A stretch of DNA of 64,000 nt, from NCBI GenBank assembly GCA_043228905.1, contig JBHGNT010000002.1:22692001-22756000 (forward strand). The letters are read 5' to 3'. Source of the DNA: Azolla caroliniana (taxonomy: Eukaryota; Plantae; Polypodiophyta). The notes beneath the pieces are model-generated. The model made no database searches. It worked only from the letters and a program-made list of their open reading frames with translations, and was not told where the DNA came from. Made by a program: the position numbers and the translations under genes. Numbering within the stretch: the stretch's first letter is position 1; every line of letters starts with the position of its first letter. Positions 9,299 through 55,300 of this stretch are shown one piece after another.

Positions 9299-9738
9299 TG
9301 TCATGACGACATACATTTTGGCCTTACAAGGATTCGAGCCCAAGACATCTTGGTCTATATGTTAGACCTTTAACCATTATACTAACATATATGATGTATA
9401 GTTATAATAAATGTATTATTAGTTATTACAAGACATTTAGAGTATTCTAGAACATTCTAGAGTATTCCAGAACAATCTAGAGTATTCTAGAACATTCTAG
9501 AGTATTCCAGAACAATCTAGAGTATTCTAGAACATTCTAGGATATTCCATGATTATATTAAATATCATAAATATCTAAAATATTCTAGAACATTCTAGAA
9601 CACTCCATAAGGACCTATAAATAGGTGTCTATTCATTCATCACAACTCATTCGGTTCAACACCAGTTTGTAGCCCCTTAGCCTACTCTTTGTAATCCTTG
9701 CTCTCTTATAATATAAACTCTCTTTCCATTTCTAGTGT

Positions 9739-12392: not shown

Positions 12393-12455
<63 letters not shown>

Positions 12456-25623: not shown

Positions 25624-26515
25624 ATATGTCTATAAAATGCAATTTCATAAACGAAGAACAATTGTTTGTTCCTCATAAGGGAGTGCGAGTCGTGTCATTT
25701 AGAGTGACACGATGTATCATAACCAGAACACCCCCCCCCCCCCCCCCCCCCCCATGATTCAATGCCCCCAATCCTCGATCGGATCACTCTGGTTCTCAGA
25801 AGACGTCTTAAACCGTATGGTGCTATACAGGATCAGATGCAGGTGTTAAGATACGATACATGGAATTGATGTGGCGGGACTATTGCCGCGCGAGGACCCG
25901 AGTTCGATTCTCGGGACTCACTCATTCAATTAGTAGTAGTAGTATTAGTAGCAAGTGGTGTATGTACATATGTAGTAATAGTATTTATTCATTGATATCT
26001 CTCAAATTCATTCACACACACACACACACAAAGGGAAACAGGGGAGACAATTTCCTTCTTTTCCTTTCTTCCTTCTTCTTCTTCCTTCTTCTTCTTCTTC
26101 TTTCTTTCTTACTTTCTTTTTCAGATCTGAGTCTTCTTCACTCTTAACCCTAATTTTCTTTCTCCTTTGCCCCCCCCCCTCTCCCTGCAATCGATTACCC
26201 TAACCTTGGAACGCTTTCTCCCTCCCTCCCTCCCTCTCCATCTTTTATTTTTTGTTTGTTTGTTTCCCCCCTTTCCTACAGATAGATCTCTGCGTTTTCC
26301 TCTTTATCCCGAGCAGGGAAACAGAGGCAGAGGAGTGGGGTAGACAGAGGAAACAAACCAGATTCGCAGAAGCGGAATCAATAGGAGTGGAGAAACAGAA
26401 GGACAAAGACACGGAGACAGCCCCCAAAAAAAAAAGGAATAAAATTTGACAGAGCAAGAGTGATAGAAATAATCACTAAAAGAACATTCATTCTTTATTT
26501 CTTCATCAGATAGAC

Positions 26516-28150
26516 ATGAGTAATCACGAATTGTCATCATCATACTGGTGCCATCGGTGCTTTGCGAGGATAAGCTTAACGAGAGATGGATCTGAACCTG
26601 TGTGCCCTACCTGCAGAGAAGGGTTTCTCGAGCAGATCGAAATGACGGAAACGCAAGGAATTCAAGGAATGGACAGAGTTCAAGGAAGGATAGAAGGAAG
26701 ATTAGAAAGAGCTATCGAAAGAAGGATAGGTGGAATAGAAGCTCTTCCTGCTGCTCTCCTATTTGCTAGCTACCTGGCAGCCAGCAACAGGAGGTCTCGA
26801 GAGAGATCTACAAGCGTTACTGCTAGAGAAGGATTCCGAAGAAGGTTTTTCCGAAGATTTAACTCTAACTCTAACTCTAACTCTAATACTAGTTCCAGCT
26901 CCAATGGTAATTCTAATACCAATGTTAGTGCTAATGCTCGTGCTTCTGGTTTTCATCGATTAGACCTTGTCTCAATCCTCAATGGTGCTTCCCAGACAGA
27001 AGGTGAGGTAAGACCGTATGATGTGTTAGATTCAAGATTTCGTGCTTTCTTGTCAGGAAGAGCCCTTTCAGATGATACAACTGTTGATAATGCCAATGAT
27101 GGTGATGACAATGCCCAAAATGTCCATGATGGTCATGTTAATAGTCATGATTCAAATGGGCATGGTCATCATGATGCTTTATCTTCATCAAGAAGAGTTG
27201 TGGATGCGAGAGATTTCTTCCTTGGATCTGGTCTGGATGCATTTCTTCAGCATCTTGCTGATAGAAGTGGAGCTAGACATGGCTCAGCCCCAGCCTCAAA
27301 ATCTTCGATTGATGCCATGCCGATACTTAAGTTCAAGAAAAAGAGTTCAGATGATGACGATGATATAAATTGTGCTGTATGTAAAGAAGCGTTTATTCTG
27401 GATGGTGAAGTTAGAGAGATGCCATGTAAGCATATCTACCATTCAGATTGTATTCTTCCATGGTTGGCTCTACACTGTTCTTGTCCAGTTTGTAGACATG
27501 AGATGCCAGCCGAGGAGATTCCGTCTTCTTCCTTGATATCAGTGGCTGATCGAGGTGTGAATAGGCCGTGGAGGAACCGAGTTGCCGGTGAGCAAAATGG
27601 ACCTTTCGGGTTGGCTATTGTTGGTGATTTAGGGTTTGGGATCCATGTTCATTCAGTCACTCTTTGGGGTCTAGATGGGGCTGTTTCTCCTGAAGAGAAT
27701 GAAAGAGGAAACAATGTAGAGTCGGCGGATGTAGGTGGTTCTGACACGCCCTCTACAAGCTCACTTTCCGCTTTATCTTCAGGAAACAACCACATCCTAT
27801 CCTCTTTGGGAAACCCTGTTGCTCTTTCCTCTTTTAGAAACCACCCAGTTGTTTCCTCATTGGGATACAGCACATTGCCTTCCTTATCGGGAAATTCAGT
27901 GGTTGTTCACCGTAGCATTGAGGGTCATGATGATCCTTCACTAGACACGATTGGAATGACGTCATCGGAGAATGTAAGCGTGTTGGGAGATAGCTCTTCA
28001 AGACTGAGGAGAAGTGGTAGCCGGCGATGGCATGGAAATAATAGGCTTTGGGATTGGATCTCTAGGTATACTTGTGGTTCTTTATCCTCCTCCTCCTCCT
28101 CCTCCTCCTCTTCTCCTCCAACGTTACCAACAAGAAGACGCTGGTGGTAA
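26516..28150 (+). CDS. RING-H2 E3 ubiquitin ligase with N-terminal zinc ribbon (BTL/RNF126/RDUF-like), 544 aa, single coding exon
   Basis: YWCHRC...CPTCREGFLEQI zinc ribbon; PASKSSIDAMP; CAVCKEAF...MPCKHIYHSDCILPWLALHCSCPVCRHEM C3H2C3 RING; uninterrupted ORF; CT-rich leader upstream. Confidence 0.93.
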   Translation: MSNHELSSSYWCHRCFARISLTRDGSEPVCPTCREGFLEQIEMTETQGIQGMDRVQGRIEGRLERAIERRIGGIEALPAALLFASYLAASNRRSRERSTSVTAREGFRRRFFRRFNSNSNSNSNTSSSSNGNSNTNVSANARASGFHRLDLVSILNGASQTEGEVRPYDVLDSRFRAFLSGRALSDDTTVDNANDGDDNAQNVHDGHVNSHDSNGHGHHDALSSSRRVVDARDFFLGSGLDAFLQHLADRSGARHGSAPASKSSIDAMPILKFKKKSSDDDDDINCAVCKEAFILDGEVREMPCKHIYHSDCILPWLALHCSCPVCRHEMPAEEIPSSSLISVADRGVNRPWRNRVAGEQNGPFGLAIVGDLGFGIHVHSVTLWGLDGAVSPEENERGNNVESADVGGSDTPSTSSLSALSSGNNHILSSLGNPVALSSFRNHPVVSSLGYSTLPSLSGNSVVVHRSIEGHDDPSLDTIGMTSSENVSVLGDSSSRLRRSGSRRWHGNNRLWDWISRYTCGSLSSSSSSSSSSPPTLPTRRRWW

Positions 28151-38209: not shown

Positions 38210-38692
38210 AGAGGGCTATCAAGGCGTGGGGTCGTGATAGTCCGGACTCCCGGGAACAACCCCACAGTACGGAAGAAGACTTGTACCATGGGTAGGAAGT
38301 TTTGGTTCTCCGGCAACGGAGGTTGTACTATAACCAGCGTCAGCGGCCGGGAGAGGAAGCGAGCGGAGGAGCAGCTCAAATGGATGCAGAGTCCTCTTCC
38401 CCGACGAATGTTAGGAATTGACTCTTTCCAAAACCTTCCCCTCTCGGCCACAACCGAGGAAACACGAATCAATGCAGCAGAAAATCGAAAACACAGAGAG
38501 AGACTCGAATGCACAGGATTTAGCGTGGAAAACCCTAGACGGGAAAAACCACGGGTGTCATAACTAGACTCGAACCCATAACCTTTTGTTACACGGGTCG
38601 AGACTTTACCATTAGGTTATGAATTGTAATTTGAAGGATATTATTTTCATTTAGGTTTTATTGGGAAATTGATGTATATTCCAGATTTCTCT

Positions 38693-38738
38693 GGAACATT
38701 CTAGAAACTTCAGGAGTATTCCTGAAGACACTATAAAA
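38693..38738 (+). promoter_or_regulatory. HSE-like array plus TATA box in the Chromo-2 5' LTR
   Basis: GAAcaTTCtaGAAacTTCagGAGtaTTCctGAA followed by TATAAAA at 38732. Confidence 0.65.
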
Positions 38739-38845
38739 GGAGGCGCAAGGCATTAGTTCGAACCAAATCGGTTCAACGCCAGTCTTAAGCCTTCTAACTA
38801 CTGTTGTATATCTTCCGTCATATAATACATATATCTTTCGCATCA

Positions 38846-38887
<42 letters not shown>

Positions 38888-39108
38888 ACTCATTCCTTCT
38901 CTCAAAGTTCGACACCTCTCATAGTACTAATCCTTCTCTGTCTTAGTACTATTCCCCAACAATAGTACTAATCCTTCTTTTAGTACTAATTCCTTCTCTG
39001 CCTTAATAGAGTTCCTGACAGTTTGAACCGATTTTGACTACTAGTCTCCCTCTTCCTTCTGTCTCCCTCCTTTCCTACTAGTCTCTTATTTCCCTTTTCC
39101 TTCATCCC

Positions 39109-40278
39109 ATGGCCACCGTTAGCGCTGAAGAGTATCAATCCGTTTTCTCGGAATTTCAATGCTTGAAAGAGAAGTTTCATGCTTTGGAACAAGAAAATCA
39201 ACGCTTGTTGGGGGATCTTCAGCAAATTTCCTTAGAAAAGCGGCAAACGCAACAACAGCATGGGGAACTTGCGTTACGCGTGCAACAACTCGAAGCAACC
39301 ATCGTAGCAATGCAACAACAAGGGCACGGAGCACAAGGGATTTATAAAGAACCCAAGATTGGCCTTCCCACGAAGTTCGATGGAACGCGATCGCAGTTTA
39401 GAGGGTTTCTTAACCAGGTACGGTTAGTTATTCAAATGCATCCGTCCCGATATCCCACCGATGCATCACGAGTGGGTTTAGTAGGCACGTTGTTAAATGG
39501 CTCAGCATTAGCATGGTTCGCTCCGCTACTAGAAAAGGAATCTCCAGTACTAAATAATTTTGAAGAATTCATAAGTGAGTTTAAAGCATGTTTTGGAGAT
39601 ACTGACAGCATAAGGACTGCAATCAACAAAATCCGGCGATTACGCCAAGGTGACCGTCCAGCCTCCGCATATGCTGCAGATTTCCGCCTACTCGCCGCCG
39701 ATATCCCCTGGGATGATCAAGCATTGATGGAGCAGTTCCGCTATGGTCTACGCAACGATGTCAAGGATTTACTCTTGACTTTCCCTGAAGAGCCAAAATC
39801 ATTAACAGAAGCAATCAGTCGAGCGGTCAGATGTGACAACCGCCTCTTCGAGCGACGTTCGGAACGACAATTTCAGATGCCGAGGGCAAGATCCGAGCCT
39901 ACCTATGCCTCAGTGGTAGCGAAACCTTTTCAAAGGGAGTCACATAATGCGCCTCCAGTAAGTACTCCAACTCCAATGGAAATTGACACTACACGTCGTC
40001 GTGGGCCGCTATCGGAGGAGGAAAAGCAACGACGCCGAACAAACCGATTATGCCTTTATTGCGGTGGACCAGGGCATATCGCGATAAACTGTCCCCATAG
40101 ACCAAGAAGGCAGGTAAACCAAGTCATTGTTAGTTCTGACTATACTAAACCCGAGTCTATTTCAGTAGGAATCTCTGATAATCCTCATAGTCATAATAGT
40201 CCTAATAGTACTAATAGTCCGAATCTCGCAAACAAATTTGATGTCCTTAGCCAATTAGAAGAAGAGTTAAACGACTAA
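39109..40278 (+). CDS. gag: Chromo-2 Gag (coiled coil, Ty3/PEG10-like capsid, CCHC knuckle), 389 aa
   Basis: Intact ORF; PTKFDGTR, LRQGDRPASAYAADFR, CLYCGGPGHIAINC. Confidence 0.95.
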   Translation: MATVSAEEYQSVFSEFQCLKEKFHALEQENQRLLGDLQQISLEKRQTQQQHGELALRVQQLEATIVAMQQQGHGAQGIYKEPKIGLPTKFDGTRSQFRGFLNQVRLVIQMHPSRYPTDASRVGLVGTLLNGSALAWFAPLLEKESPVLNNFEEFISEFKACFGDTDSIRTAINKIRRLRQGDRPASAYAADFRLLAADIPWDDQALMEQFRYGLRNDVKDLLLTFPEEPKSLTEAISRAVRCDNRLFERRSERQFQMPRARSEPTYASVVAKPFQRESHNAPPVSTPTPMEIDTTRRRGPLSEEEKQRRRTNRLCLYCGGPGHIAINCPHRPRRQVNQVIVSSDYTKPESISVGISDNPHSHNSPNSTNSPNLANKFDVLSQLEEELND

Positions 40279-43159
40279 GTCCAGCCAAAATAGGAGCCGT
40301 TTGGTTGGACAGCCCTAGATCTGTGCAGCCCATTAGTGGTTCCATTCCCTCTAAGCAAGTTAGTGATGTGTTCGTAGCCCAAGTAGCAGTTAGTACTAAA
40401 AGTACCCCTCCAGTACATACCTTAGCCCTTCTAGATTCCGGAGCTAATTCTTGCTTCATGGATAGGAATTTTGCCCGAGCTCATCAGATATCTCTCAGAA
40501 AGCTCCCATGTCCAGCCTCAGTAGTAGTCATTGATGGTCGTCCCATTGCTTCTGGTAATATCATAGAAGAGTCGGAACCCGTTAATATTGTCCTAGATAA
40601 CTTAACATGTGTAGTATCATTTAATATTATTAGTATTCCAGAACATCCCATAGTTTTAGGATTACCATGGTTCGAGTTACATGACCCAGACATAGATTGG
40701 AGGACAAGGGAAATCCGGTTGCGACAAACCCAAGGATCTACCCAGAAGGTTGCAACCATTTCGCTACGTCAGTTGCGTGAGGAAGGGCGCAAGGAGGAAA
40801 TGTTTCTCTTTGCAATATCAGTACAACCCTCCAGCACCACCAAAGAGGAGTCCACCGTTCAACTTCCCGAGAAGTATCGTCAGTATGCTGATGTGTTCGA
40901 TAAAGTACAAGCCAACACACTTCCTCATCATCGGCCGTACGACTGCGCCATCGACTTACAACCGGGAAAAGAACCGCCATGGGGGCCGATCTACAATTTG
41001 TCACCAACCGAGCTAGAAGTCCTTCGAGCCTATATAGAGGAGAATTTGGAGAACGGTTTCATTCGGCATTCGAAATCTCCAGCCGGCGCACCCATTTTCT
41101 TCGTCAAGAAAAAAGATGGCTCGCTTCGACTCGTTGTAGATTACCGTGGCTTGAATAAGGTCACAGTAAGAAATAGGTATGCTCTTCCCCTTATCTCAAG
41201 TCTTTTAGAACGGATCAACGGTGCCAGGTTCTTCACGAAGATCGACTTACGAGGAGCCTATAACCTCGTACGGATCCGACCAGGAGATGAATGGAAGACC
41301 GCGTTTCGCACCAGATATGGGCACTTCGAGTATACGGTCATGCCGTTCGGACTCACTAATGCGCCGACAGTCTTCCAGCACATGGCGAATGATATATTTC
41401 GAGATCTCTTGGATGATTTTTTGATCATCTATTTGGATGATCTACTGGTTTATTCAAAGACCCAAGAAGAACATGATTCTCATGTACTATTAGTACTAAA
41501 ACGACTTCGAGAACATGGTCTGTATGCAAAGTTAGAGAAATGTAGTTTCGGGTGCAACCAAGTGGAGTTTCTCGGCTATGTCATCTCCTCAGAAGGCATA
41601 TCTATGGACCCAGCCAAGGTCAAAACGGTGATAGAATGGCACACTCCGCGTTCGGTGCGGGATGTGCAATGCTTCCTAGGCTTTGCAAATTTCTACCGGA
41701 AGTTCATACAAAATTACTCAAAAATTGTGCTGCCTCTCACACAGCTCACCAGGAAGGGACAATCATTCATTTGGTCTAAAGAGACGGACATGGCTTTCGA
41801 GAGTCTTAAGAAGGCGTTTACATCAGCTCCAATTTTAGGTCATGTGGATCCGGAAAAACCATTCATTATCGAAGCTGATGCATCGGATTTCGCATTGGGG
41901 AGCATTCTGTCACAACAGGGTAAGGACGAGAAGCTACATCCTGTGGCTTTCCACTCCCGTAAGTTTGACGCCGCCGAAATCAACTACGAAATTCATGATA
42001 AAGAGCTATTAGCAATAGTTGATTCTTTTATGCAATGGAGGCATTTCCTGGAGGGATCTCCTCATCAGGTCACTGTATTCAGTGACCACAAGAACCTTGC
42101 CTACTTTCAAGATGCTCGTGTACTGAATCGACGTCAAGCTCGGTGGGCCCACTTCCTCACACGCTTCGACTTCAAAATTACATATCGTCCGGGGAAGCAC
42201 CAAGGGAAGGCAGATGCATTATCACGACGTTCGTATCTAACACCACGTCCCGGTGAGCCAGCTTTCGATAACCAGAAACAAGTAATCTTGGGTCCAGCAC
42301 GACTGCAAGCAGCACAGGTCTTTGACATGCCCGTGGATTCCGACATTACCAATACTATACGTGAGGACTTGAAGACTGACGCTTTCGCCCAAGCTATACT
42401 AGCACAAATTGACCCCTCTCGAGCGTCATGTTCACAATCACAATCACCAGGTACGGATTATCGGCAATTCAAATACTGTGATGGATTACTCTTCTTTAAA
42501 GAACTTTTGTATGTTCCTAATGGTTCTTGCCGCCTTCGAGTAGTACAAAACTGCCATGACACATATACAGCAGGACATTTTGGTAGTACTAAAACATTAG
42601 ATTTAGTACAACGATCATTTTGGTGGCCCCGTATGCGACAATTTGTCGAAGATTTTGTTCGGACTTGCGATACATGCTGCAGAGCGAAAATGCCAAGACA
42701 TCATCCATATGGTTTATTAGAACCATTACCAATTCCAAGCAAGCCATGGCAATCCATTGCTCTTGACTTCATTACAGATCTTCCAGTCTCTAAGGGATTC
42801 AGTGCGATTTTCATAGTGGTGGATCGATATACGAAGATGGCTCATTTCTTACCATGTACTAAAGAAATATCTAGTGAAGACACCGCCGAAATTGTCATGC
42901 GGGAAGTATGTCGGCATCATGGACTCCCTGATAATATCATCAGCGATCGTGGACCCCAGTTTGTGTCAAAATTCTGGAAGCACCTTTTTAAAATGCTGAA
43001 GGTCACTTGTAACCTCTCCTCCGGCTACCACCCACAAACCGACGGTCAAGCTGAACGAACAAATCAAACACTGGAGCAGTATCTGCGGTGCTTTCTCAAC
43101 TATCATCAGAATGACTGGGCATATATTCTTCAGTTCGCCGAATTTGCCTATAATAACGC
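40266..43159 (+). CDS. pol: Chromo-2 Pol, 5' part (PR, RT, RH, most of INT), -1 frame relative to gag, interrupted at 43160
   Basis: LLDSGA, YLDD, ADASDFALG, HHCC, SDRGPQF, QAERTNQ, FAYNNA then the insertion. Confidence 0.95.
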
Positions 43160-43566
43160 TGTGGAGATATTACGCAAGTGCGTGTGGAATCGAGGCGGGA
43201 CCGCGGGGGTCTCGAACCAAAGAGCAAGCGAGGGAGGAGAAAGAGAGAGAACCGGCTACGCAGGACCGGGGATACACAGGGACACGGCCCTTCAGCACGG
43301 AGAACGCGAACAGACACCGACACAGACAGATGCGAACGACTAAATATGTATATTAACAAAATTGCTAACACGATTACAACCCTCGATGGGGCACAGGTTG
43401 GTTACAACCGAACAGGCCGGCGAACAGATGCCGATGCCTGTTCGCTTCGACGCACAAACGGGGTAGCAGGTCGGAGGTGCTGCCGGAAGCACTCGGGCGT
43501 TCCTCGAAACAGCGCGAGCCTCCTCGGAACCCTGCACAGAAGCTATGGAGCTCGAGAAGGAAGGAG

Positions 43567-43601
<35 letters not shown>

Positions 43602-44038
43602 CTCCCAGAAACGGTCCGGCAGCACTTCGTCCTCTCCGCGCGTCGAGATCCCTGCAACAGCTCTTTCCCGCTCCTTATATAGGCCGACGAGCAGGCCGTC
43701 GTGTCAGCTTTATTCCCTGTCCCTTTTGGACAGGGATCCGCTCCGTTTTTCACGCATCCGCGTAGTTACGCCGCCGACTCGTACAGTTCGCGCGCGCGAC
43801 CGAAAAGACTGTTCGCGCGGTCTTTGTCTCCACGCGAGTTAGGGCCCGTTCTTGCCGATTATCCTCCTAATTCGCTTCTATGTACAACTTGGAGCGTGCG
43901 CGCGTGAAGAACCGGTTCCCACGCCTTGGTGCGCCGATTCCGCCTATGGACGGTTTTCTTCACGACATCCGCCCCCACCTAACCGCGCATCCTCCGGTAT
44001 GCGCCAAGAGAGTTGGGACGGAGAAAACCGGCCCGTCT

Positions 44039-47000
44039 TCATTCCTCGCCCGTCGGTTCTTCCTCGTTCTCGGATCGTTCGTCACTGCCGACCAGGAGAG
44101 CCGGGTCCGGCTCATCGTCATGTCGCTTCTTGAACGCTTTGATCCGCTTCCCTGCAACCGGTATCGCCACTCTCGTGCCGTCAAGTTCCGCCAGGTGATA
44201 TGTCCCGTTGTCATTGGCGCTCCGTACCACGTAGGGCCCAAACCACCTTCGTGCGAACTTCCGTGTGGCTCGGTGCTGGTTGTCGAGGCTGCTGTCGTAG
44301 ACGAGCACCCAGTCACCTTCTTCGATCTTCTTTGGTCGGAGCCGGTGCGTTCGGTCGAACCTGGCTTTGTTCTTTGCTCTCGCCACCCGGAGCCTCTCCG
44401 TAGCCAGTTCCACGTCCTCCGGTCTCCGCTCGAGCTGTCGTATGCGCGCGGCCAACAACTCCTCCCGGCTCATCTCGTCCCGCCAGGCGACCGTTGCCCA
44501 CGAGGAGATCGTCCGTTCCATCGGCATGACCGGCTTCTGGCCGAACATGAGCTCCGTCGGCATGTACCCGGTTACCGAACTGTGCGTGGTCCGGTCTGCC
44601 CACAAAGCATAAGGTAGCAGCCGCGGCCAGTTACCGACTTGGCCTCCGCATGCCCGAACCAACGCCTTGACGATCGGCCCGTGTCCGCGCTCCACCTTCC
44701 CATTCGCCTCCGGATTGTACGCAGTGGTGAGCGAGAGCTTGACTCCCAGCCGGTCGAACAGCTCCGCGGCTTCTTCGGCGTCCAACTCCCCTCGGTCAGC
44801 CACGATCTTCCCGACGCACCCGTACCGGCATATCACGTCCTCGATCAGGAACCGACACACGGCCTCGGTCGTCTTGTTCTGAAGGGCTCGGCCTTCCACC
44901 TGGTTCGTCAGGTCTTCCCGCGCTAGGACCAGATACCGCATCTGTCCTACCCCCATCGGCATCGTCACTAGATCTACCATCCATTTGAAGTGGATAGTCG
45001 GAGGGTACGTAGGGCGAAGCCCGTCCCGGTGTCGGACCATCGAGTGCATCTGACAACTCTCGCAAGTTGACACGAACCGATGCACGTCCCGGTACAATCC
45101 CGGCCACCAGTACTTCCCCTTCAGCTTCTCAAATGTCGCCCACGTTCCACGGTGTCCAGCCCAAGGGCTGTCATGGTAGGCCGCCAGTAGCTCCTCCTGT
45201 TCTTCCTTCATCGCCACCACCCGGAGCGGGACGCCGTTCCTCTTCTTCGGGTGCTTCCACAAATGCCCATCTCGGAGAAAGAATCGATATGCTTTCTTCC
45301 GGATCCGGTTGGCCTCGTCCTTCGTCCATGACGCATCGGGCGTCATTGTCTTCAAAAACCCGCCGATCTGCAGCCACTCCCCGTCGTACTTGCTCGCGTC
45401 GAACTCGTTAAGCGCCGGAGTGCTCATCCCGTCGGTCGTTATGTATGCCGCCTCGAAGAAATCCACGCCGACTTCTTCGTCTTCCGAAACCATGCCGCCC
45501 TCGTCGTCGAACCTCGCCCTCGAAAGCATGTCGGCCATGGCGTTGTCTTTCCCGGAAATGTGTCGTATTTCCGGGTCCAGGGACTTGATGTACGCTATCC
45601 ACCTGAGCATCGCCAGGTCCGGAGTCGCGCATCCGGAAACCATACCGAGAATCGGCAGGCAATCCGTCTCGATGATCACTTCTGTCCCTATCAGGTAGTC
45701 TTTGTCGGCCTTAACCGCCGAAACAATACCCCAGAGTTCGCGTTTAACCTGGGCGTATCCTCGCTGTCGTTCGCTGAGGACTTTCGCGCCGAACCGGATC
45801 GGAAACCGATTGCCGTCCTCGTCTTCCTGGTTCACGACCCATCCGATCCCGGTCGGACTGGTATCCACCGTTATGAATACCGGGGTACCCTTCCCGTATA
45901 CCGCCTTCCGGAGTGCCGGTGCCGCTGCAAGGGCCTCTTTCAGCTTCCGGACCGATTCCGCGTGCTCGTCTAGCCATTCGAACCTTCGCCCCTTTTTCAG
46001 CAACCCGTACAGTGGCTCCGCGACGTGTGCGTAATGCGGGATCCATATGTGGTAGAACGCGCATGCCCCCAGGAATCTCCGTACTTCCGTGACCGAGCTG
46101 CAGTCGGGCTTCATCGCGGAGATGGCTTCTACCTTTGCCGGAGACGGTTTCCGGCCATATGGTCCGCACAGGTGCCCGACCACCATGATTTCTGACTGCC
46201 CGAAGGCCGACTTCTCCCCGGAGAAGGTGAGTCTCGCATCCTCTAGCCTTTGCAGCACCTTCTCGCAGTCGTCGATGTGCATTACCACGAATCGCCGGCA
46301 TCCGTCCGGCCCGACCGTCTCGTCCTTCTCTTCTACCGGGCATCCCTTGATCGGGATGTCGTCTAGAAACGGCATGGTGATGTCCGGGATGCAGTCCCTC
46401 AGCACCTTGTTCATTGCATTCACCATGTGGGCCACCGAGTTGGTCCCTCCTTGCGGCAGTGTACACATCCGAACTAGGCCGAGGGGAGTTCGCATCGTCG
46501 TAATGTCTCTGCTCTCCACGGCTAGCTGGAACTGGTCGTACCCTGAGTATAGATCCCCGACCAAGTAAATTGACCTCCCGGCGAAGGCCTCCGCGAACTC
46601 GTCTATGGTCGGTCCGATCCCTGCGTTCCGAATGGTCACTCGATTGACCGGCTGCAGGTCCTGGATGAAGCGCAACGAACCGTTTTTCTTCGGTACGGTA
46701 AACCATCGATTCGAATATGGGGCGCTCGACGGCTCGAGAATTCCCATATCAACTTTCTGCCTCAGCAGCTCCATCAACTTCGGGATGTGAGCTCTCGGAA
46801 CCGAAATTGCCTTGAGATTCCACGGTACATGCGGTACCGTGAATATCACCATCGGCTCTACGATCGTCGGGTCCACGCACCCGATTTCCTCCGGCGAGAA
46901 TGCGAAGGCTTTCCCGTGCCTTCCGAGCATTCTCCGGAACCGGTCTTCCTCCGCCGGCAATAGGAACCCGCCCCCACCGATCTTCAGCTCGCGGAGCGTC

Positions 47001-47527
47001 TCGTTGGTGAAGGTGTGTCCTATGCAGGCCGGATCTCGTAAGCTGGGGTCCGATGCAACCCCTTTGATTCGGGACTCGCTGCCCTCCGGTAAGGGTGCCG
47101 CGACTGGCCTCACCTTCCGATCCACGGTCTTGTACTTGGTGCTCACTCGGGCCGTCTGTTCCGACTCGAGCCCTCGACCGAAGTCCGCGATGACCTCGTA
47201 CATTTCCTCTGAACATACCGGTATCGTCCGGTCTTCGTTAAAGTCTTCTTCGACTACCTCCCCCAGCATTCCCAAGGTGTCGTCGAAGGAGACTGCCTCC
47301 ACGGCTCCGATGATTCCTTCGTCAGGGCCGAGAACTCCGCACGCCCGAAGTCTCCCCTCCGTCTTTGTTTTCTCTCGGCCGGTGATGCCGACCATCGTAC
47401 ATGCTCCGCTGTCGGAGAAGCAAAATTTCCTACCTATTGTACACGGTTTTATCGTACAGATGTGGGGTTTTCCCGGAGCATCCGGACTGTCGCGGCCCCA
47501 CGCCTTGGCAGTCCTCTCTAAAAATCC
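44039..47527 (-). CDS. pol: Copy C ORF2: RT, RNase H, integrase with GPY motif, no chromodomain; entered by predicted -1 frameshift
   Basis: Open from the slippery site to 44039; YKTVDRKVRPV, LPQGGTNS, PFLDD, VDTSPTG, H..H..CESC, VDLV/ADRGE/VERGH, WFGPY. Confidence 0.93.
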   Translation of the reverse strand, partial: GFLERTAKAWGRDSPDAPGKPHICTIKPCTIGRKFCFSDSGACTMVGITGREKTKTEGRLRACGVLGPDEGIIGAVEAVSFDDTLGMLGEVVEEDFNEDRTIPVCSEEMYEVIADFGRGLESEQTARVSTKYKTVDRKVRPVAAPLPEGSESRIKGVASDPSLRDPACIGHTFTNETLRELKIGGGGFLLPAEEDRFRRMLGRHGKAFAFSPEEIGCVDPTIVEPMVIFTVPHVPWNLKAISVPRAHIPKLMELLRQKVDMGILEPSSAPYSNRWFTVPKKNGSLRFIQDLQPVNRVTIRNAGIGPTIDEFAEAFAGRSIYLVGDLYSGYDQFQLAVESRDITTMRTPLGLVRMCTLPQGGTNSVAHMVNAMNKVLRDCIPDITMPFLDDIPIKGCPVEEKDETVGPDGCRRFVVMHIDDCEKVLQRLEDARLTFSGEKSAFGQSEIMVVGHLCGPYGRKPSPAKVEAISAMKPDCSSVTEVRRFLGACAFYHIWIPHYAHVAEPLYGLLKKGRRFEWLDEHAESVRKLKEALAAAPALRKAVYGKGTPVFITVDTSPTGIGWVVNQEDEDGNRFPIRFGAKVLSERQRGYAQVKRELWGIVSAVKADKDYLIGTEVIIETDCLPILGMVSGCATPDLAMLRWIAYIKSLDPEIRHISGKDNAMADMLSRARFDDEGGMVSEDEEVGVDFFEAAYITTDGMSTPALNEFDASKYDGEWLQIGGFLKTMTPDASWTKDEANRIRKKAYRFFLRDGHLWKHPKKRNGVPLRVVAMKEEQEELLAAYHDSPWAGHRGTWATFEKLKGKYWWPGLYRDVHRFVSTCESCQMHSMVRHRDGLRPTYPPTIHFKWMVDLVTMPMGVGQMRYLVLAREDLTNQVEGRALQNKTTEAVCRFLIEDVICRYGCVGKIVADRGELDAEEAAELFDRLGVKLSLTTAYNPEANGKVERGHGPIVKALVRACGGQVGNWPRLLPYALWADRTTHSSVTGYMPTELMFGQKPVMPMERTISSWATVAWRDEMSREELLAARIRQLERRPEDVELATERLRVARAKNKARFDRTHRLRPKKIEEGDWVLVYDSSLDNQHRATRKFARRWFGPYVVRSANDNGTYHLAELDGTRVAIPVAGKRIKAFKKRHDDEPDPALLVGSDERSENEEEPTGEE

Positions 47528-49641
47528 TCTCGGTTTTCGGAACCGAGGGAATCGCGGTTACGTTCGTGGTTCGGCCTTACCGTCAGAAACTGGACCGAAT
47601 GGCGCCCGTCTTGGCTTTTGACCCTCGCGTAGGCCGAACCATTGTCCAGCACTTTGGTCTCCATTCGCGCCGCCGTGATGTACGGCTCTCCCAGAATGAC
47701 CGGATGCGAAGACGTCTCCTGCACGAAGAAATGCTGGTCAATCTCGACGTCGCCGATCTTGACTCGCACATTCGGACAGGCCCCGTGCAGTTCCTCGGTG
47801 GCGCGCGTTGCCGCCCTTATTTTCCACCCGTGCTTGGTGTTGATCGGCCATTTGCCCTTCTTATAGAAGTCCATGGACATCAAATTGATCTCCGATCCGT
47901 GGTCTACCAAAGCTATCACCGGTTCCTGGACATCGCCGATCTTCACCGGGGTTTCCGTGGTCGCTCGGGCCCAGTGCGGTCTCGAATAGTGGCTTTCCGC
48001 CCACTCGTCTCCCAGCGCCATGTCGTCTAGGTGCGTCGTCCGCACTTCCACCGGTCTTTCCGGTTCTGTCTCCGTTGACAGCCTCTTCCGTTTCACCAAG
48101 TCCACGATGGAGTCGTGGAACTCCTTCTTGGCGATTCCCAGCACCTCCCGTAGCGACAGCTCCACCTTGCTGTCGAGGATCCGTTCCTCCAGGACCTTTC
48201 GTAAGTCCGTGGTTCTTTCTATCTCCGTCCCCAGACGGTACCCGCCCTTCTGGGGTTTATCTTGCGTACCGGCCCCGCCTGCTTCGTCCCGTCGTGGCCC
48301 GGACCGGGTCTCGTATCGTTGTGAGGGCCCGGTCGTCCCGGGTTTCCCCACCCGCTTCTCTTCTACCAGAGCCTCGTAGTTCCGGCAATCGGCTTCCACG
48401 AAGCCCGTCTTTTCCTCGACCGGGTCGCTCCACCCGGTCATCTCCCGTACCCGTTTCTCCGCACGGTCCGATTCCTCCCTCTTCATCCTCGTATCGGCAA
48501 GGCCTTCCAGCACCGTCGGCCAGAATCCGGCTTTGCTTCCTCTTCGGGCCTCGTTGCCCCCGACTCGAATACCGGCCGACGCCGAGTAGTGGACGGTTTC
48601 CGCATGTCGGGCCGCCGCCTCTTCCATCAACCTCTTCATTCCGCCTCGCCCGTCGTTTCGGCTCAGGGCCCTTCGGGTGTCGCTGGCATGCACCCGTCCT
48701 TCCCACAGGTACACCACCCTGTCCCTTAGCGCCTCCGCGAAGTCGCCGCAGTCCTTCCGAATGTGGCCGACTTCATCGCACCACATGCACCTGTTTCCTG
48801 CCGCCGGCCGTCGGTCACGAGCCGGTTCGCCACCTTCCCTTCGGGCTTGCGCGATTTGGAGGTCCTTTACCGCCCTCGTCAATTCCTCCAGCGCCGCTCC
48901 TCCGGTCGAGCCTCTGACTACGCCGGTCGAAGCCGAACCGGTTTCCAACCACTCTCCGGTCTCTTCCTTTCGCACCCGTGGCGCTGGTTCGAACTTCCTT
49001 GCTGCGACCGAGCCCGACCCGGTTACCCCGTTATCCACCCATTCTCGCCGTTTGTCGAAACGGCCACAGACTTTCTTGACAGCTGCCCAGTCGGTAGTGA
49101 GCCCGTCTTCGGTTTCCAGCAAGAGGCCCACTTGCTCCCGATCCCGCTCATCGACCGACTTGACAAACAGCAAGACCCGGCTTGTATCCAGGACCATCCT
49201 GTCAAGCGCCGAAAGGCGCGCGAAGTTCTCGAACTCCCGGAGGAGTGCCAACGCATTCCTTCCTTTCCCGGGAGACTCCACCCATTCCATGAACCTTCGC
49301 TTCGAAAGCCGGAGCGCGTCGTCCAGCCCGTATTTCTCTAGGAGCCGACCTTCGAACTCCTCCCAGGTACGGCTCTCCGCCCGCACCTCGAGCACCTCCG
49401 CATGGATGCCCGGCATTGCGACTCGGGGAAATCCGGCAAGACGCCTTTCTTCCGGAATGTCCCGCATCAACATTTCCGCACCGTAGGACGCCAGATACTT
49501 CGTGGCATCCCTCCCATCGAACCGGCCGATCGTGCCGACAACCGCCTCAATAGCTCTGTCGAGGGCACCGGTGCCCTCGCGCGCGTTTACAATCCGATCC
49601 ACGGCCGAAGCCATGGCCTCTGCAAGATCCGACCCCCTCAT
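47518..49641 (-). CDS. gag: Copy C ORF1: Gag + CCHC knuckle + aspartic protease
   Basis: First ATG at 49641 (MRGSDLAEAM); CMWCDEVGHIRKDC; ALVDHGSEIN...VILGEPY; ends GAG GAT TTT TAG. Confidence 0.92.
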   Translation of the reverse strand: MRGSDLAEAMASAVDRIVNAREGTGALDRAIEAVVGTIGRFDGRDATKYLASYGAEMLMRDIPEERRLAGFPRVAMPGIHAEVLEVRAESRTWEEFEGRLLEKYGLDDALRLSKRRFMEWVESPGKGRNALALLREFENFARLSALDRMVLDTSRVLLFVKSVDERDREQVGLLLETEDGLTTDWAAVKKVCGRFDKRREWVDNGVTGSGSVAARKFEPAPRVRKEETGEWLETGSASTGVVRGSTGGAALEELTRAVKDLQIAQARREGGEPARDRRPAAGNRCMWCDEVGHIRKDCGDFAEALRDRVVYLWEGRVHASDTRRALSRNDGRGGMKRLMEEAAARHAETVHYSASAGIRVGGNEARRGSKAGFWPTVLEGLADTRMKREESDRAEKRVREMTGWSDPVEEKTGFVEADCRNYEALVEEKRVGKPGTTGPSQRYETRSGPRRDEAGGAGTQDKPQKGGYRLGTEIERTTDLRKVLEERILDSKVELSLREVLGIAKKEFHDSIVDLVKRKRLSTETEPERPVEVRTTHLDDMALGDEWAESHYSRPHWARATTETPVKIGDVQEPVIALVDHGSEINLMSMDFYKKGKWPINTKHGWKIRAATRATEELHGACPNVRVKIGDVEIDQHFFVQETSSHPVILGEPYITAARMETKVLDNGSAYARVKSQDGRHSVQFLTVRPNHERNRDSLGSENREDF

Positions 49642-49663
49642 CTTCTGCTCTTCTGCCGCCTCT

Positions 49664-49681
49664 TTCACGTCGGGTTCACCA
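49664..49681 (-). other. Primer-binding site complementary to the 3' 18 nt of plant cytosolic tRNA-Trp
   Basis: TGGTGAACCCGACGTGAA, 4 nt after the LTR; tRNA-Trp 3' end recalled as ...TTCACGTCGGGTTCACCA. Confidence 0.85.
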
Positions 49682-50092
49682 AAGATGTGGAGATATTACG
49701 CAAGTGCGTGTGGAATCGAGGCGGGACCGCGGGGGTCTCGAACCAAAGAGCAAGCGAGGGAGGAGAAAGAGAGAGAACCGGCTACGCAGGACCGGGGATA
49801 CACAGGGACACGGCCCTTCAGCACGGAGAACGCGAACAGACACCGACACAGACAGATGCGAACGACTAAATATGTATATTAACAAAATTGCTAACACGAT
49901 TACAACCCTCGATGGGGCACAGGTTGGTTACAACCGAACAGGCCGGCGAACAGATGCCGATGCCTGTTCGCTTCGACGCACAAACGGGGTAGCAGGTCGG
50001 AGGTGCTGCCGGAAGCACTCGGGCGTTCCTCGAAACAGCGCGAGCCTCCTCGGAACCCTGCACAGAAGCTATGGAGCTCGAGAAGGAAGGAG

Positions 50093-50127
<35 letters not shown>

Positions 50128-50493
50128 CTCCCAGAAACGGTCCGGCAGCACTTCGTCCTCTCCGCGCGTCGAGATCCCTGCAACAGCTCTTTCCCGCTCC
50201 TTATATAGGCCGACGAGCAGGCCGTCGTGTCAGCTTTATTCCCTGTCCCTTTTGGACAGGGATCCGCCCCGTTTTTCACGCATCCGCGTAGTTACGCCGC
50301 CGACTCGTACAGTTCGCGCGCGCGACCGAAAAGACTGTTCGCGCGGTCTTTGTCTCCACGCGAGTTAGGGCCCGTTCTTGCCGATTATCCTCCTAATTCG
50401 CTTCTATGTACAACTTGGAGCGTGCGCGCGTGAAGAACCGGTTCCCACGCCTTGGTGCGCCGATTCCGCCTATGGACGGTTTTCTTCACGACA

Positions 50494-51200
50494 ACGCTAT
50501 CCACGCATCGACTAAAGTCACGCCATTCTACGCTTATACGGGATATCATCCCCGGTGGTGTGTCCTTGAAACCCCAGAAGTGTCCACAAATCCTTGCGCG
50601 GAGGATCGTTTGGAGCGGTTACGCAAGATACAAGCGGATTTATCTACTCAACTCCAGCAAGCTCAACAATCACACAAGGACTACGCAGATCGTCATCGAC
50701 TTCCATCCAGTTTTAACATTGGAGATCGGGTGTGGCTGCTACGACGACACATCAAGACTACTCGCCCATGTGAGAAGTTGGATTATCGGCGATTAGGTCC
50801 TTTCCGTATTATCGGGAAGATTAATGATGTCACTTTTCGTCTCGAGCTACCTCCGCAACTTCGGATACACCCGGTGTTTCATAGTTCTCTCCTCGAACCC
50901 TATCACGAGAGCACTATCCCAGGACGTACTATACAACCTCCACCTCCTATCGAGCTCGAAGATGGACCTGAGTATGAGGTCGCTGCCATCCTCGATTCCA
51001 AGATTGTTCGCAACAAGCTCTACTATCTAGTCGATTGGCTAGGATATAGTCCCAGCGAGCGTACTTGGGAACCGATCGAGAATGTGACCAATGCTCGTGC
51101 TCTTCTAGAAGACTTCCATCGACGATATCCCGAGAAACCGGGTCCTCAATCCAAAACGACTCGTGAAACTCGTCGTTTTAAAGGGGGGATAGTGTCATAA
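50494..51200 (+). CDS. pol: Chromo-2 Pol, 3' part (INT C-terminus, GPF, group-I chromodomain); stop lies inside the 3' LTR
   Basis: Same frame as the 5' part; LGPFRI, IHPVFHSSLL, YEVAAILDSK...YLVDWLGY...TWEP. Confidence 0.93.
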
Positions 51201-51482
51201 CTAGACTCGAACCCATAACCTTTTGTTACACGGGTCGAGACTTTACCATTAGGTTATGAATTGTAATTTGAAGGATAATATTTTCATTTAGGTTTTATTG
51301 GGAAATTGATGTATATTCCAGATTTCTCTGGAACATTCTAGAAACTTCAGGAGTATTCCTGAAGACACTATAAAAGGAGGCGCAAGGCATTAGTTCGAAC
51401 CAAATCGGTTCAACGCCAGTCTTAAGCCTTCTAACTACTGTTGTATATCTTCCGTCATATAATACATATATCTTTCGCATCA

Positions 51483-51522
<40 letters not shown>

Positions 51523-52305
51523 ACTCATTCCTTCTCTCAAAGTTCGACACCTCTCATAGTACTAATCCTTCTCTGTCTTAGTACTATTCCCCAACAATAG
51601 TACTAATCCTTCTTTTAGTACTAATTCCTTCTCTGCCTTAATAGAGTTCCTGACAACGGGAGTGCAAGACTCCAACTATCACTATACGCAGGGAATGTAC
51701 AATGGCGAGCTGCAAGGCGACGACCTTGAGCTCGCTGTCCTCGCCACAGGCGGCGGTATTACACAGAGGCGTCGACCTCTTCCTTTCTCTCTCTCTCTCT
51801 CTCACTCTCTCTAAGTGGAAAACAAAAAAATGAGCAACCACTACAAAACTGTTTGCCCTAAGTCATATTTATACACATATGACTTTCGGGCTATTTACAA
51901 ATATAGCCTCAAGAGCCCTTGGCAAACATATTCACAAATATGTCCCCGCATCCGGATCTCTCTCCGGGTACATTCGTCATCCGGCTCCGTAGCCGGGGTC
52001 TTCATCATCCGGATTCGGAACCGGGTCTTCATCATCCGGCTCCGATACCGGGTACTCCTCATTCGGGTCTTCATTCCCGATTCCCAGACATCCGACCATC
52101 CCATCCGGAGGGACCGTAATCCCAACAAACTCCCCCTTCACTTCGGCATGGGATGTCTTTTCAGTCCGACCCTCTTCCGGCACGCTTCCAGCTTGTCGGG
52201 TGTGAGCACTTTGGTCAGCATATCCGACCCGTTCTCGTCCGTGTGGATCTTCGTCAGCACGAACTCCTGGTCTTCTATCCTTTCCCGGATCCAGTGATAT
52301 CTTCG

Positions 52306-55300
52306 CTAGATGTGCTTCGTCCGGGAGTGATAGGCCGCGTTCTGCGCAAGGTGGATGGCACTCTGACTGTCGCAGTAGAGTCGGTACTCCTCCTGCCGGA
52401 TACCGAGCTCTCTAATGAAGTCCTTCATCCATATTATTTCCTTGCCGGCTTCAACAGCCGCCATGTACTCCGCCTCCGTGGTTGACAACGCAACCGTCTT
52501 CTGCAGCCTCGACTGCCACGAAACAGCTCCCCCTGCATACGTCATCACATACCCTGATGTGGACCGGCTGGTATCTGCATCAGCCGACATATCTGAATCG
52601 GTAAAGCCGTCGAGTTCGGGCTTACCGGAGCCGAATTGGAGGCACACGTTTGTCGTGCCCTTCAGGTATCGGAGTATCCACTTGGCCGCGTTCCAGTGCT
52701 CTTTGCCGGGATTGCTCATGTATCGGTTCACCACTCCAACTGCATATCCTATGTCCGGTCTTGTACACACCATTGCGTACATCAAGCTTCCGACGGCAGA
52801 GGCATATGGTACTTTCATCATGTCCTCCTTCTCAGCCTTTGTCTTGGGGCTTTGCTTGCTGGACAACTTGCAGTTTGCCGGGAGGGTTGACCCGACCGGT
52901 CTTGCTTCCGACATGTTGAACCGGTGAAGCACCTTTGTCACGTACTTCTCCTGTGACAGCCACAACTGCTTCTTCTTCCGGTCCCGGATGATGTGCATCC
53001 CTAGTATTTGCCTCGCCGGACCCAGGTCCTTCATTGAGAAGGTTCGGTGAAGCGCTTTCTTCAGCATCCGTATCTTGACTTGGTCCCGTCCGACGATCAA
53101 CATGTCGTCCATGTACAGGAGGAGTATTAGAAAGTCTCCTCCTTCGAACTTCTTCACAAACACGCAGTGATCGGACTGCGTTTTGTGGTACCCTTCGTCG
53201 GTCATGAAAGAGTCGAACTTCCGGTACCATTGCCGGGGAGCCTGCTTCAGTCCGTAAAGGCTCTTCTTCAACCGGCATACCAGGTGCTCCTTCCCTTTCT
53301 TCTCGAATCCTTCCGGTTGCTGCATGTAGATCTCTTCTTCGAGGTCACCGTGAAGGAATGCCGTCTTCACGTCCATCTGTTCTACCTCGAGGTCCATGCT
53401 TGCCGCTATGCTCAGCACCGTCCGGATGGAGGTCATCTTCACTACCGGGGCAAATATCTTGTCGAAGTCGACGCCCTTCTTCTGCTGAAACCCCTTCACC
53501 ACGATCCTGGCTTTGTATCTCGGGGGGTTTCCGGCATCTCCCGGTTTCAGCTTGAACACCCACTTGTTTCGAAGTGCCCGCTTTCCTTTCGGCAACTCCA
53601 CAAGTTCATATGTGTGGTTCTCATGCAGGGAATCCATCTCCTCCTGCATGGCACTTAACCACTTGCGGCTATGGGTGTCAAGCTTTGCTTCTTCAAAACT
53701 CTCCGGCTCCCCTTCGTCGGTTAGCAGCACATGCTCTGGTTCCGGAAATCTCCGGGGGGCCCTTCTCTCTCTTAGAGGATATCTCCGTTCCGGAGATTCG
53801 GTAACCGGCTCCTCCGTTTCCTCTTCATCCGAATCCATTTCGGGATCGGGGCCGGTTCCGGTATCAGTTTCATCTTCCTCGGCCGGTTCTGTTTCTTCAC
53901 CGTCTTCGGCCGGATCCTCGAGTGCTAACCGGTCCCTTGCCGGTCGGGACTGCTCCTCGTAGAGTTGATCCTCACCGGTCGACTTGGAGCTCTTCATCTT
54001 CTTCTCCGACTCCCAGTCGGCGAGTGTCTTGTCCTCCATGAAGATGATATCACGACTTCGGAATATCTTTTTGTCGACCGGGTCCCATACTCGGTAGCCG
54101 AACTCGTCATCGCCGTAATCGAGGAATATGCATGGCCGGGTCTTTGGATCTAGCTTTCCTCTCCGGTCCTTTGCCACATGCACATATACGAGACACCCGA
54201 ACACCTTCAGATGCCGGTAGGATACTTCCCTACCGGTCCACACTCTCTGCGGCGTGTCTCCATCCAAAGGTACTGAGGGTGATCTGTTTATCACGTATGT
54301 CGCCGTCGACATTGCCTCAGCCCAAAACCCCTTGGGTAATTTCGCATGCGCCAGCATACTCCGGACCCTCTCCATTATGGTCCGGTTCATCCTCTCGGCC
54401 AACCCGTTCAGTTTCGGCGTCTTCGGCACAGTAAACTCGAGCCGGATTCCCTTCGAGCGACAATACTCCTTGAACTGCCCCCGGTATTCCCCTCCGTTAT
54501 CCGCTCGTATCGCTTTCAGCTTCTTGCCGGATTCCCTTTCCACTCTCGCGTAGAGTTCTTTGAAGACGCACAACACTTGGTCCTTTGTCTTCAACGGTGC
54601 CGTCCACAACTTCCGACTATGGTCATCAATGAATGTCACGAAGTACTGGGCTCCGCCATGTGACTTCGTTTCTACTTGACACACGTCAGTGTGTACCAAC
54701 TCCAATGGTGTGCTACGTCTCGTCGGTGGCCTTGAGTGGAAGGAGGTTCGGTTCTGCTTACCGGCCAGGCAATCGGTGCACTTCTCCAGGTGCACATGCT
54801 TCACTGGAATAAGGTTGTCTTCTGCAAGCCTCTTCATCCCCTTCTCACTCATGTGGCACAGTCTCTTGTGCCACAGCTCACCGGCAGTGTCGGCTGCCAC
54901 GTTCAACTCCTCCGGACACAACCAGGCATTCATAAGGTATAGTGTGTTGACTTTCCGGGCCCGAGCCACTATCAGGCTCCCCTTGCTGAACTTCATTACG
55001 TCGTTCCGGATGCTACCTGTGTAGCCTTCATCGTCTAGCCTCCCGGCCGAAATCAGGTTCAATCGAACCTCCGGAACGTGTCGGACATCCTTCAGCAACA
55101 TTTTGCATCCGGTCGAGGTTGTCAACCACACGTCTCCTATGCCGGCAATCCGGCACGTACCTTCATTTCCCATCCGAACACAGCCATGCTCACCGGCTGT
55201 GTAGGATGAGAAGTATCTTCTTTCCGGGGTCAGGTGGAACGACGCTCCGGAATCGACCACCCAGGTAGTCTCATCGCCGACAATGTTTAGTTCACCTTCT

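What the first reader, a model, noticed from the sequence alone, without database searches (positions are those of the whole stretch)
38765..39034. Tf1-type self-priming signature instead of a tRNA PBS in Chromo-2
Seen: no TGG after the 5' LTR. Instead TTGAACCGATTT (39023-39034) is the perfect 12-nt complement of AAATCGGTTCAA (38765-38776), which starts 33 nt after the TATA box where the transcript should begin. The diverged Chromo-1 LTR keeps TCGGTTCAAC (9651-9660) at nearly the same distance from TATA. Known: S. pombe Tf1 primes reverse transcription with the first 11 nt of its own RNA. Inference: a recently active plant element using this mechanism.
Basis: partly seen in the sequence, partly recalled or inferred. 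Interest (0 to 1): 0.7.

Follow-up and report, generated by a model that had tools for sequence, protein, structure and literature searches.

The report
Self-priming moss retrotransposon, primer ends mapped
A young jumping gene in what is probably a moss has no tRNA primer site; its 12-base primer site pairs with its own terminal repeat and changes in step with it across related copies, so it likely starts copying itself from the front 12 bases of its own RNA, a trick known from yeast Tf1 and already predicted for this group of moss elements.

Summary
Observation confirmed: 39023-39034 is the exact complement of 38765-38776, 33 nt after the TATA start, and there is no TGG. The element is a young Ty3/gypsy chromovirus (LTRs 38556-39020 and 51193-51655, 5-bp TSD) that fits the plant Tcn1 (Tf1/sushi) clade; this copy is interrupted by a nested element. 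The PBS motif occurs 2,259 times in the genome. Primer and PBS change together at two positions in several lineages. Two copy-level scars place the primer ends. (1) Near-identical copies are invariant through PBS base 12 and hypervariable from base 13; a tRNA-Trp-primed family in the same genome has that edge at 18/19. (2) Of 37 fold-back copies (PBS running into inverted U3; 9 with exact TSDs), the 30 that rejoin inside R-U5 never do so at R bases 1-11, and 9 rejoin at 12-19. No RNA data were found, so the TSS and the cleavage are inferred. Self-priming is already predicted for 83% of plant Tcn1 elements (PMC6317226), and this scan noted it twice before in other mosses. Verdict: new member of a known kind, with unusually good in-genome support.

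The parts
38551..38555 (+). left 5-bp target-site duplication ACGGG (right copy 51656-51660)
38556..39020 (+). 5' LTR (465 bp, TG...CA); differs from the 3' LTR by one substitution and one CT indel
38732..38738 (+). TATA box (by consensus match)
   Evidence: TATA-to-primer-end distance 44-45 nt in 79 of 87 rows
38765..38776 (+). self-primer, predicted first 12 nt of the RNA; predicted TSS 38765, predicted cut between 38776 and 38777
   Evidence: TSS and cut are inferred
39021..39022 (+). GT spacer between LTR end and PBS
39023..39034 (+). 12-nt primer-binding site, complementary to 38765-38776
39035..39037 (+). hypervariable junction just after the PBS (21 forms in 32 near-identical copies), likely a scar of copying to the primer's 5' end
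   Evidence: control
39109..40278 (+). gag ORF (Retrotrans_gag, Ty3 capsid, CCHC)
40251..43159 (+). pol, overlapping gag in another frame: protease, RT, RNase H, integrase N-terminal part and core; interrupted at 43160
43160..50493 (-). nested non-chromovirus gypsy element (Phygy-like: 808-bp LTRs 99.9% alike, 4-bp TSD ACGC, 18-nt tRNA-Trp PBS); not part of the finding, used as a tRNA-primed control
50494..51200 (+). rest of pol: integrase C-terminal part, Tf2-like SH3 domain, chromodomain with aromatic cage
51180..51189 (+). polypurine tract, followed by TAG and the 3' LTR
51193..51655 (+). 3' LTR (463 bp), with the second copy of the primer sequence at 51402-51413
9649..9659 (+). 11-nt self-primer of the related Chromo-1 family, in its 3' LTR; the matching PBS is seen only in other genomic copies

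Best explanation
This is a young Ty3/gypsy chromovirus whose 12-base primer-binding site pairs with 12 bases of its own LTR, and it likely primes reverse transcription as Tf1 does, with the front of its own RNA. Shown: anatomy, complementarity, fixed distance from TATA, covariation, the conservation edge at PBS base 12, and the fold-back insertions. Inferred: transcription starts at 38765; nt 1-12 fold onto the PBS about 250 nt downstream; the element's RNase H cuts after nt 12, leaving a 3'-OH that RT extends through GT, U5 and R to nt 13 before the first strand jump. Inferred: plus-strand synthesis later copies the primer to its 5' end, which rewrites the PBS from the LTR sequence (hence the concerted changes) and adds untemplated bases (hence the variable junction at 39035). 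Inferred side reaction: in about 2% of insertions a DNA or RNA end carrying U3 plus R1-12 primed on a PBS, or the PBS copy primed on R1-12, which gave the inverted-U3 copies.
For: Exact complement, no TGG; 3 of 5,000 shuffles match as well. The duplex forms in the unconstrained fold, z = -5.9, 0 of 200 shuffles as good; mean pair probability 0.90-0.95 in 16 of 16 chosen copies. In the window's subfamily, 66 of 70 copies have the perfect pair. In Chromo-1, 7 of 8 PBS-bearing copies pair over 11 nt with a change on both sides. In 79 chr1 copies, PBS base 8 is G:C 23, A:T 47, discordant 9 (p = 2e-11) and base 10 is T:A 68, A:T 5, A:A 5, C:A 1; pairing holds in 74 of 79 at base 12 and 8 of 79 at base 13. 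Not an age effect: a neighbouring CpG shows no link (p = 0.60), and the A:T state needs 8 changes on a gag tree, at least 4 forced by well-supported branches. Conservation edge at 12/13 against 18/19 in the tRNA-Trp-primed control. Fold-back copies: 36 pattern hits, 0 control hits; 9 exact TSDs; junctions 0 of 30 at R1-11 and 9 of 30 at R12-19. RT-RH groups with fungal and vertebrate elements, apart from seed-plant and algal ones, SH-aLRT 99. Mechanism in Tf1: PMC7175516 passage; PBS copy and untemplated bases on Tf1 cDNA ends: PMC11042837 section 8.
Against: No direct TSS, cleavage or cDNA data. The two side duplexes of the Tf1 'pretzel' were not recovered: a 3-bp side stem appears in 5 of 16 folds at probability 0.45-0.78, none pairs downstream of the PBS above 0.25. 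PBS bases 1-7 and 9 were fixed by the search pattern and the LTR site was chosen as the best match near TATA, so only bases 8 and 10-13 and the fixed spacing are free tests. Base 8 is a CpG on both sides. 8 of 87 rows and 4 further loci were dropped (truncated LTR, mutated TATA or fold-back). The R12-19 window was chosen after seeing the data, and RT pausing at a hairpin base could give the same edge without a cut. An unreviewed scan note (e1-9828399) reports LTR-PBS-inverted-U3 joins in a tRNA-primed element, so the fold-back layout alone is not specific. The tree is the quick search and holds no named Tcn1 or Tf1 sequence.
Confidence: 0.88

Rival explanations
1. A tRNA fragment ending in the T-loop primes the element, and the LTR match is secondary.
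For: The primer's 3' end resembles a T-loop (consensus recalled). Three tRNA genes in the genome (L151 and L153 Ala-TGC, L168 called Gln-TTG) match its last 10 bases.
Against: The match is 10 nt and ends 16 nt inside the tRNA. The next two tRNA bases would give AA at PBS 11-12, but 32 of 32 copies have TT, matching the LTR. The PBS follows the LTR through three variants. Only 30 of 123 pattern hits were scanned with ARAGORN, and tRNAs with a mispaired T-stem would be missed.
Confidence: 0.04
2. The RNA self-primes, but the primer is released differently from Tf1 (a host nuclease, a primer from the 3' R copy or from the second RNA), or starts are mixed so that primer length varies from 11 to 15 nt.
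For: No pretzel side stems. Pairing extends to 13 nt in 7 and to 15 nt in 1 of 79 copies. Fold-back junctions peak at R17-19 (7) rather than at 12-13 (2). The fold-back copies show that an end carrying U3 can take part in the pairing.
Against: The sharp edge at base 12/13 and the same TATA spacing in two families favour one dominant start. The element belongs with the group in which RNase H cleavage was shown for Tf1.
Confidence: 0.07
3. The inverted repeat is a structural or packaging element, or chance, and priming happens by another route.
For: Covariation by itself shows pairing, not priming.
Against: The tract sits exactly at the PBS position, no other primer site is present, the motif occurs 2,259 times against 8 controls, and the mutational edge behaves like the primer edge of the tRNA-primed control.
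Confidence: 0.01

Closest known systems
Plant Tcn1-clade chromoviruses of mosses and club-mosses (REXdb; Neumann et al. 2019, PMC6317226; passages and supplementary file 5 read)
   Same: Chromodomain with aromatic cage, 5-bp TSD, overlapping gag and pol frames, size about 5.8 kb without the nested element (range given 5.5-9.4 kb), no tRNA PBS, a tract of 10 nt or more within 0-5 nt of the LTR complementary to the LTR. Self-priming is predicted there for 83% of 1,500 elements.
   Different: The passages read predict self-priming from complementarity alone; covariation, the junction scar and fold-back copies are not in them. Additional file 1 (per-element table) was not among the files I could search.
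Tf1/Tf2 of Schizosaccharomyces pombe, with Tj1, Tosmo1-3 and Tcry1 (passages of PMC7175516, PMC4600332 and bioRxiv 2022.12.06.519325; section 8 of PMC11042837)
   Same: The 5' end of the RNA is complementary to the PBS; similar primer length (11 nt in Tf1 and Chromo-1, 12 nt here); Tf1 cDNA keeps a PBS copy and gains untemplated 3' bases, which fits the junction scar.
   Different: A 2-nt GT spacer and about 250 nt between primer and PBS. The three-duplex pretzel required by Tf1 was not found. Gag and pol lie in separate overlapping frames. Cleavage is proven for Tf1 and only inferred here.
Tcn1 of Cryptococcus neoformans and SM-Tcn1 of Selaginella (passages of PMC7175516 and PMC2864245)
   Same: Same clade name and domain order; fungal Tcn1 is proposed to self-prime.
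   Different: For SM-Tcn1, PMC2864245 found evidence for neither tRNA priming nor self-priming.

Membership tests
Ty3/gypsy chromovirus | LTRs, TSD, PPT, order gag-PR-RT-RH-INT-chromodomain | tested here: met
Plant Tcn1 clade (Tf1/sushi group) | chromodomain with aromatic cage | tested here: met
   Y, W and Y align with the corresponding aromatic residues of CDY and HP1 chromodomains (which residues form the cage is recalled)
Plant Tcn1 clade (Tf1/sushi group) | RT-RH groups with fungal and vertebrate chromoviruses, not with seed-plant or algal clades | tested here: met
   29-row clade, SH-aLRT 99, quick tree of 40 rows, 1 row dropped for short overlap; named hits 52-60% (vertebrates, Lyophyllum) against 43-53% (Tanacetum, Closterium)
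Plant Tcn1 clade (Tf1/sushi group) | sister placement with named Tcn1 reference elements | not testable with these tools
   no REXdb or GyDB sequences held; the nearest proteins are unnamed
Plant Tcn1 clade (Tf1/sushi group) | host is a moss or club-moss | tested here: inconclusive
   Land plant; best named hits of the RING gene are ferns at 43-44%. An abundant Phygy-like family (4-bp NCGN TSD, tRNA-Trp PBS), reported from a moss, points to a moss.
Plant Tcn1 clade (Tf1/sushi group) | 5-bp TSD, overlapping gag and pol, about 5.5-9.4 kb | tested here: met
Tf1-type self-primed elements | no tRNA PBS; PBS complementary to a site in the own LTR | tested here: met
Tf1-type self-primed elements | the complementary site is the 5' end of the transcript | tested here: inconclusive
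   indirect support only: TATA +33 in two families, conservation edge at base 12; no RNA reads
Tf1-type self-primed elements | three-duplex pretzel structure | tested here: inconclusive
   central duplex strong; side duplexes weak or absent in single-sequence folds of 16 copies; no covariance model was built
Tf1-type self-primed elements | RNase H cut that frees the primer | not testable with these tools
   the junction edge at R12/13 in fold-back copies is consistent with it but does not prove it

The most novel reading that the evidence does not exclude
The genome holds fossils of both ends of the self-primer: the hypervariable bases after PBS base 12 mark the capped 5' end (C in 27 of 66 copies may be copied from the cap), and the fold-back insertions, bounded at R base 12/13, record the RNase H cut itself. 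That would be in-vivo evidence for the cleavage step of self-priming in a plant, read from DNA alone, and would show a built-in cost of self-priming: about 2% of insertions are integrase-made inverted derivatives. I did not find this described (paper searches).
Probability: 0.45. Interest if true: 0.5.

Novelty: new member of a known kind. Interest (0 to 1): 0.3.

Why it matters
Self-priming in plant Tcn1 elements has rested on complementarity alone in the papers I read. Here covariation, a primer-length ruler calibrated on a tRNA-primed family of the same genome, and integrated fold-back products all point to a 12-nt self-primer. The ruler and the junction map could place the TSS and cut site of any high-copy self-priming family without RNA data. 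The mechanism itself is not new, so the finding confirms a prediction rather than opening a new kind of system.

Tried and rejected
RNA evidence: no RNA holder was listed; four contig-only runs were laid on the LTR and cannot show a start. One low-depth contig of run X8 leaves the LTR at 38776 and continues as inverted U5, the fold-back junction, in a separate run; a weak hint only. Pretzel side stems: not recovered. tRNA 3'-end priming: rejected, no TGG. T-loop fragment priming: rejected on bases 11-12 and on covariation; 30 of 123 pattern hits were scanned, 5 held a tRNA call at the match. CpG decay with age as the cause of covariation: rejected. A search for R base 13 variants gave 296 hits and added nothing. 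Cluster look-ups gave no organism names for close relatives. The careful tree did not finish; the quick tree is reported. Original Tf1 papers (Levin 1996, Lin and Levin 1998, Atwood-Moore 2005 and 2006, Esnault and Levin 2015) were not held, so Tf1 details come from secondary passages. Simple genomic inversion between the 12-bp repeats was considered for the fold-back copies and rejected for most: the internal junctions differ from copy to copy and do not resume at the leader. No frequency control for fold-back joins was run on the tRNA-primed family.

Full report
Observation. The 12 bases at 39023-39034 are the exact reverse complement of 38765-38776. The 5' LTR runs 38556-39020, ends in CA and is followed by GT and the tract; there is no TGG. 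The TATA box starts at 38732, 33 nt before the first A of the LTR motif. Of 5,000 Markov-shuffled LTRs, 3 gave a match of 12 nt or more anywhere in the LTR. The predicted RNA from 38765 folds with this duplex as its outer stem, z = -5.9, 0 of 200 shuffles as good.

The element. The LTRs differ by one substitution and one CT indel and are flanked by the 5-bp duplication ACGGG, so the insertion is young. Gag (39109-40278) overlaps pol in another frame; pol holds protease, RT, RNase H, integrase, a Tf2-like SH3 domain and a chromodomain. A 7.3-kb non-chromovirus gypsy element sits inside the integrase gene (43160-50493), so this copy is interrupted. The host is a land plant with a 523-Mb genome, probably a moss: the nested element has the 4-bp NCGN duplication and tRNA-Trp site listed for Phygy. 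The host call is an inference.

Family survey. The LTR-end-plus-PBS motif occurs 2,259 times, against 8 for the reversed control. The window's subfamily has 266 copies of an exact 26-mer; of 70 examined, 66 have the perfect primer-PBS pair, 2 have a change in the LTR, 1 is a fold-back copy and 1 has a PBS joined to the end of a PPT and a second LTR. The window's Chromo-1 copy has lost its PBS. Among 30 Chromo-1 loci, 8 carry a PBS; 7 pair perfectly over 11 nt and 1 has one mismatch; relative to Chromo-2, one base has changed on both sides. In both families the primer starts 33 nt after the TATA start.

Covariation. I took 90 of the first 100 listed hits on contig C1 (91 matches). Four had no TATA upstream and 8 more rows were dropped (truncated LTR, mutated TATA or fold-back), leaving 79. 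At PBS base 8 the pairs are G:C 23, A:T 47 and discordant 9 (Fisher p = 2e-11); at base 10, T:A 68, A:T 5, A:A 5 and C:A 1 (p = 1e-5). Pairing holds in 74 of 79 at base 12 and in 8 of 79 at base 13. Base 8 is a CpG on both sides, so I tested age: the PBS state is unrelated to a neighbouring CpG (p = 0.60), and the link persists in the 56 copies where that CpG is intact (p = 2e-9). On a FastTree of the leader-gag region the A:T state needs 8 changes, at least 4 forced by well-supported branches; nine rows have long branches. PBS bases 1-7 and 9 were fixed by the pattern and are not evidence.

Scar 1, the primer's 5' end. In 32 subfamily copies with one leader type, unselected columns vary by 6% or less in all but two places, PBS bases 9-12 are invariant, base 13 differs from the majority in 56%, and there are 21 different junction strings; 34 copies with a second leader type show 16. 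Base 13 is T 34, C 27, G 3, A 2 of 66; G would be the templated base if starts lay one base upstream. As a control, 31 copies of the tRNA-primed Phygy-like family and one tRNA-Trp gene are conserved through base 18, the length of the tRNA match, and vary from base 19 (mixed subfamilies, bases 4-16 fixed by the pattern). The edge therefore behaves as a primer-length ruler and gives 12 nt, that is a 5' end at 38765. Tf1 cDNA keeps a PBS copy and gains untemplated 3' bases (PMC11042837, section 8), which is the likely cause.

Scar 2, fold-back copies. A strict pattern finds 36 places, 0 in the control, where U5-GT-PBS runs in register into inverted U3; two more came from other samples, and one pair is a duplicate, giving 37. 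That is about 1.6% of the PBS motifs (3 of 91 in the C1 sample, 1 of 70 in the window's subfamily). Nine have an exact 5-bp duplication around the whole unit and four have one mismatch; in the rest the far end was outside the fetched DNA, rearranged or unmatched. So at least these were made before integration. Seven keep U3 upstream (5 whole, 2 partial). The other 30 join other element sequence inside R-U5: none at R1-11, 2 at 12-13, 7 at 17-19, 8 at 25-40 and 13 further on (binomial p = 2e-6 for 12-19, window chosen after the fact). A template that ends at R13 is what a cut after base 12 leaves. Pausing at a hairpin base is an alternative, and an unreviewed scan note reports a similar layout in a tRNA-primed element.

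tRNA rival. The primer ends like a T-loop. Of 123 T-arm pattern hits, 30 were scanned; 5 lay in tRNA calls, the best matching 10 bases and ending 16 nt inside the tRNA. Their next two bases do not fit the invariant PBS bases 11-12, and the PBS tracks the LTR through three variants.

Against or missing. No RNA run holds the element, so neither the TSS nor the cut was seen. The two side duplexes that Tf1 needs (bioRxiv 2022.12.06.519325, passages) were not recovered in 16 single-sequence folds.

Comparison with what is known. RT-RNase H groups with fungal and vertebrate elements, apart from seed-plant and Closterium elements (SH-aLRT 99, quick tree, no named Tcn1 reference), and the chromodomain keeps its aromatic residues. 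With the 5-bp duplication and overlapping frames this fits plant Tcn1. Neumann et al. 2019 predict self-priming for 83% of 1,500 Tcn1 elements (PMC6317226, passages and supplementary file 5). Novikova et al. 2010 found no priming signal in SM-Tcn1 (PMC2864245, passages). The Tf1 mechanism, 11 nt and an RNase H cut between bases 11 and 12, is taken from a review passage (PMC7175516); the original papers were not held. Tj1 passages were read in PMC4600332. Other papers were seen only as search listings. Four searches did not show the junction scar or fold-back copies described for a self-priming element; most subscription journals are not covered. This scan noted the same signature in two other probable moss genomes.

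Verdict. New member of a known kind; interest 0.3, raised a little by the two scars that place both primer ends from DNA alone.

Noticed in passing
G000, e.g. L182, L193, L197, L219, L222, L230, L231, L237, L255: Fold-back derivatives (PBS continuing into inverted U3), often with several further template jumps; L193 is a bare LTR-PBS-inverted-U3 unit of about 650 bp with an exact 5-bp duplication.
   Followed up: yes
window 43160-50493 (-): Nested Phygy-like gypsy element with 99.9% identical LTRs, 4-bp duplication and 18-nt tRNA-Trp PBS; its PBS core occurs 5,834 times in the genome. Its 3' LTR matches 43160-43967 and its 5' LTR 49686-50493.
   Followed up: partly
one of L240-L309: An LTR-GT-partial PBS joined through a short shared stretch to the end of a PPT and a second LTR, a tandem-LTR junction.
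   Followed up: no
L148 (G000:C1:22810195-22811696): Two R-U5-PBS units in tandem, 288 bp apart, the first with a deletion after the TATA region.
   Followed up: no
window 4409-9835: Chromo-1 copy with a deletion from U3 (about 4671) into gag, stops in pol and a 10-bp-period repeat array in U3.
   Followed up: partly
window 51653-56800 and 1973-12738: Ty1/copia elements: one with a 1,312-codon ORF on the minus strand directly beside the Chromo-2 3' LTR, and a related one (80% alike) into which Chromo-1 is inserted.
   Followed up: no
window 26480-28150 (+): Host gene for a RING-type ubiquitin ligase (zinc ribbon plus RING-H2); best named hits are ferns at 43-44%.
   Followed up: partly
L151, L153, L158, L168: tRNA genes with organelle-like arrangement or sequence on large contigs (possible organelle insertions; the organelle assignment is recalled, not tested).
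   Followed up: no
window subfamily, L240-L309: Copies with near-identical LTRs split into two unrelated leader types right after the PBS (32 and 34 of 70), suggesting recombination at the second strand jump.
   Followed up: no
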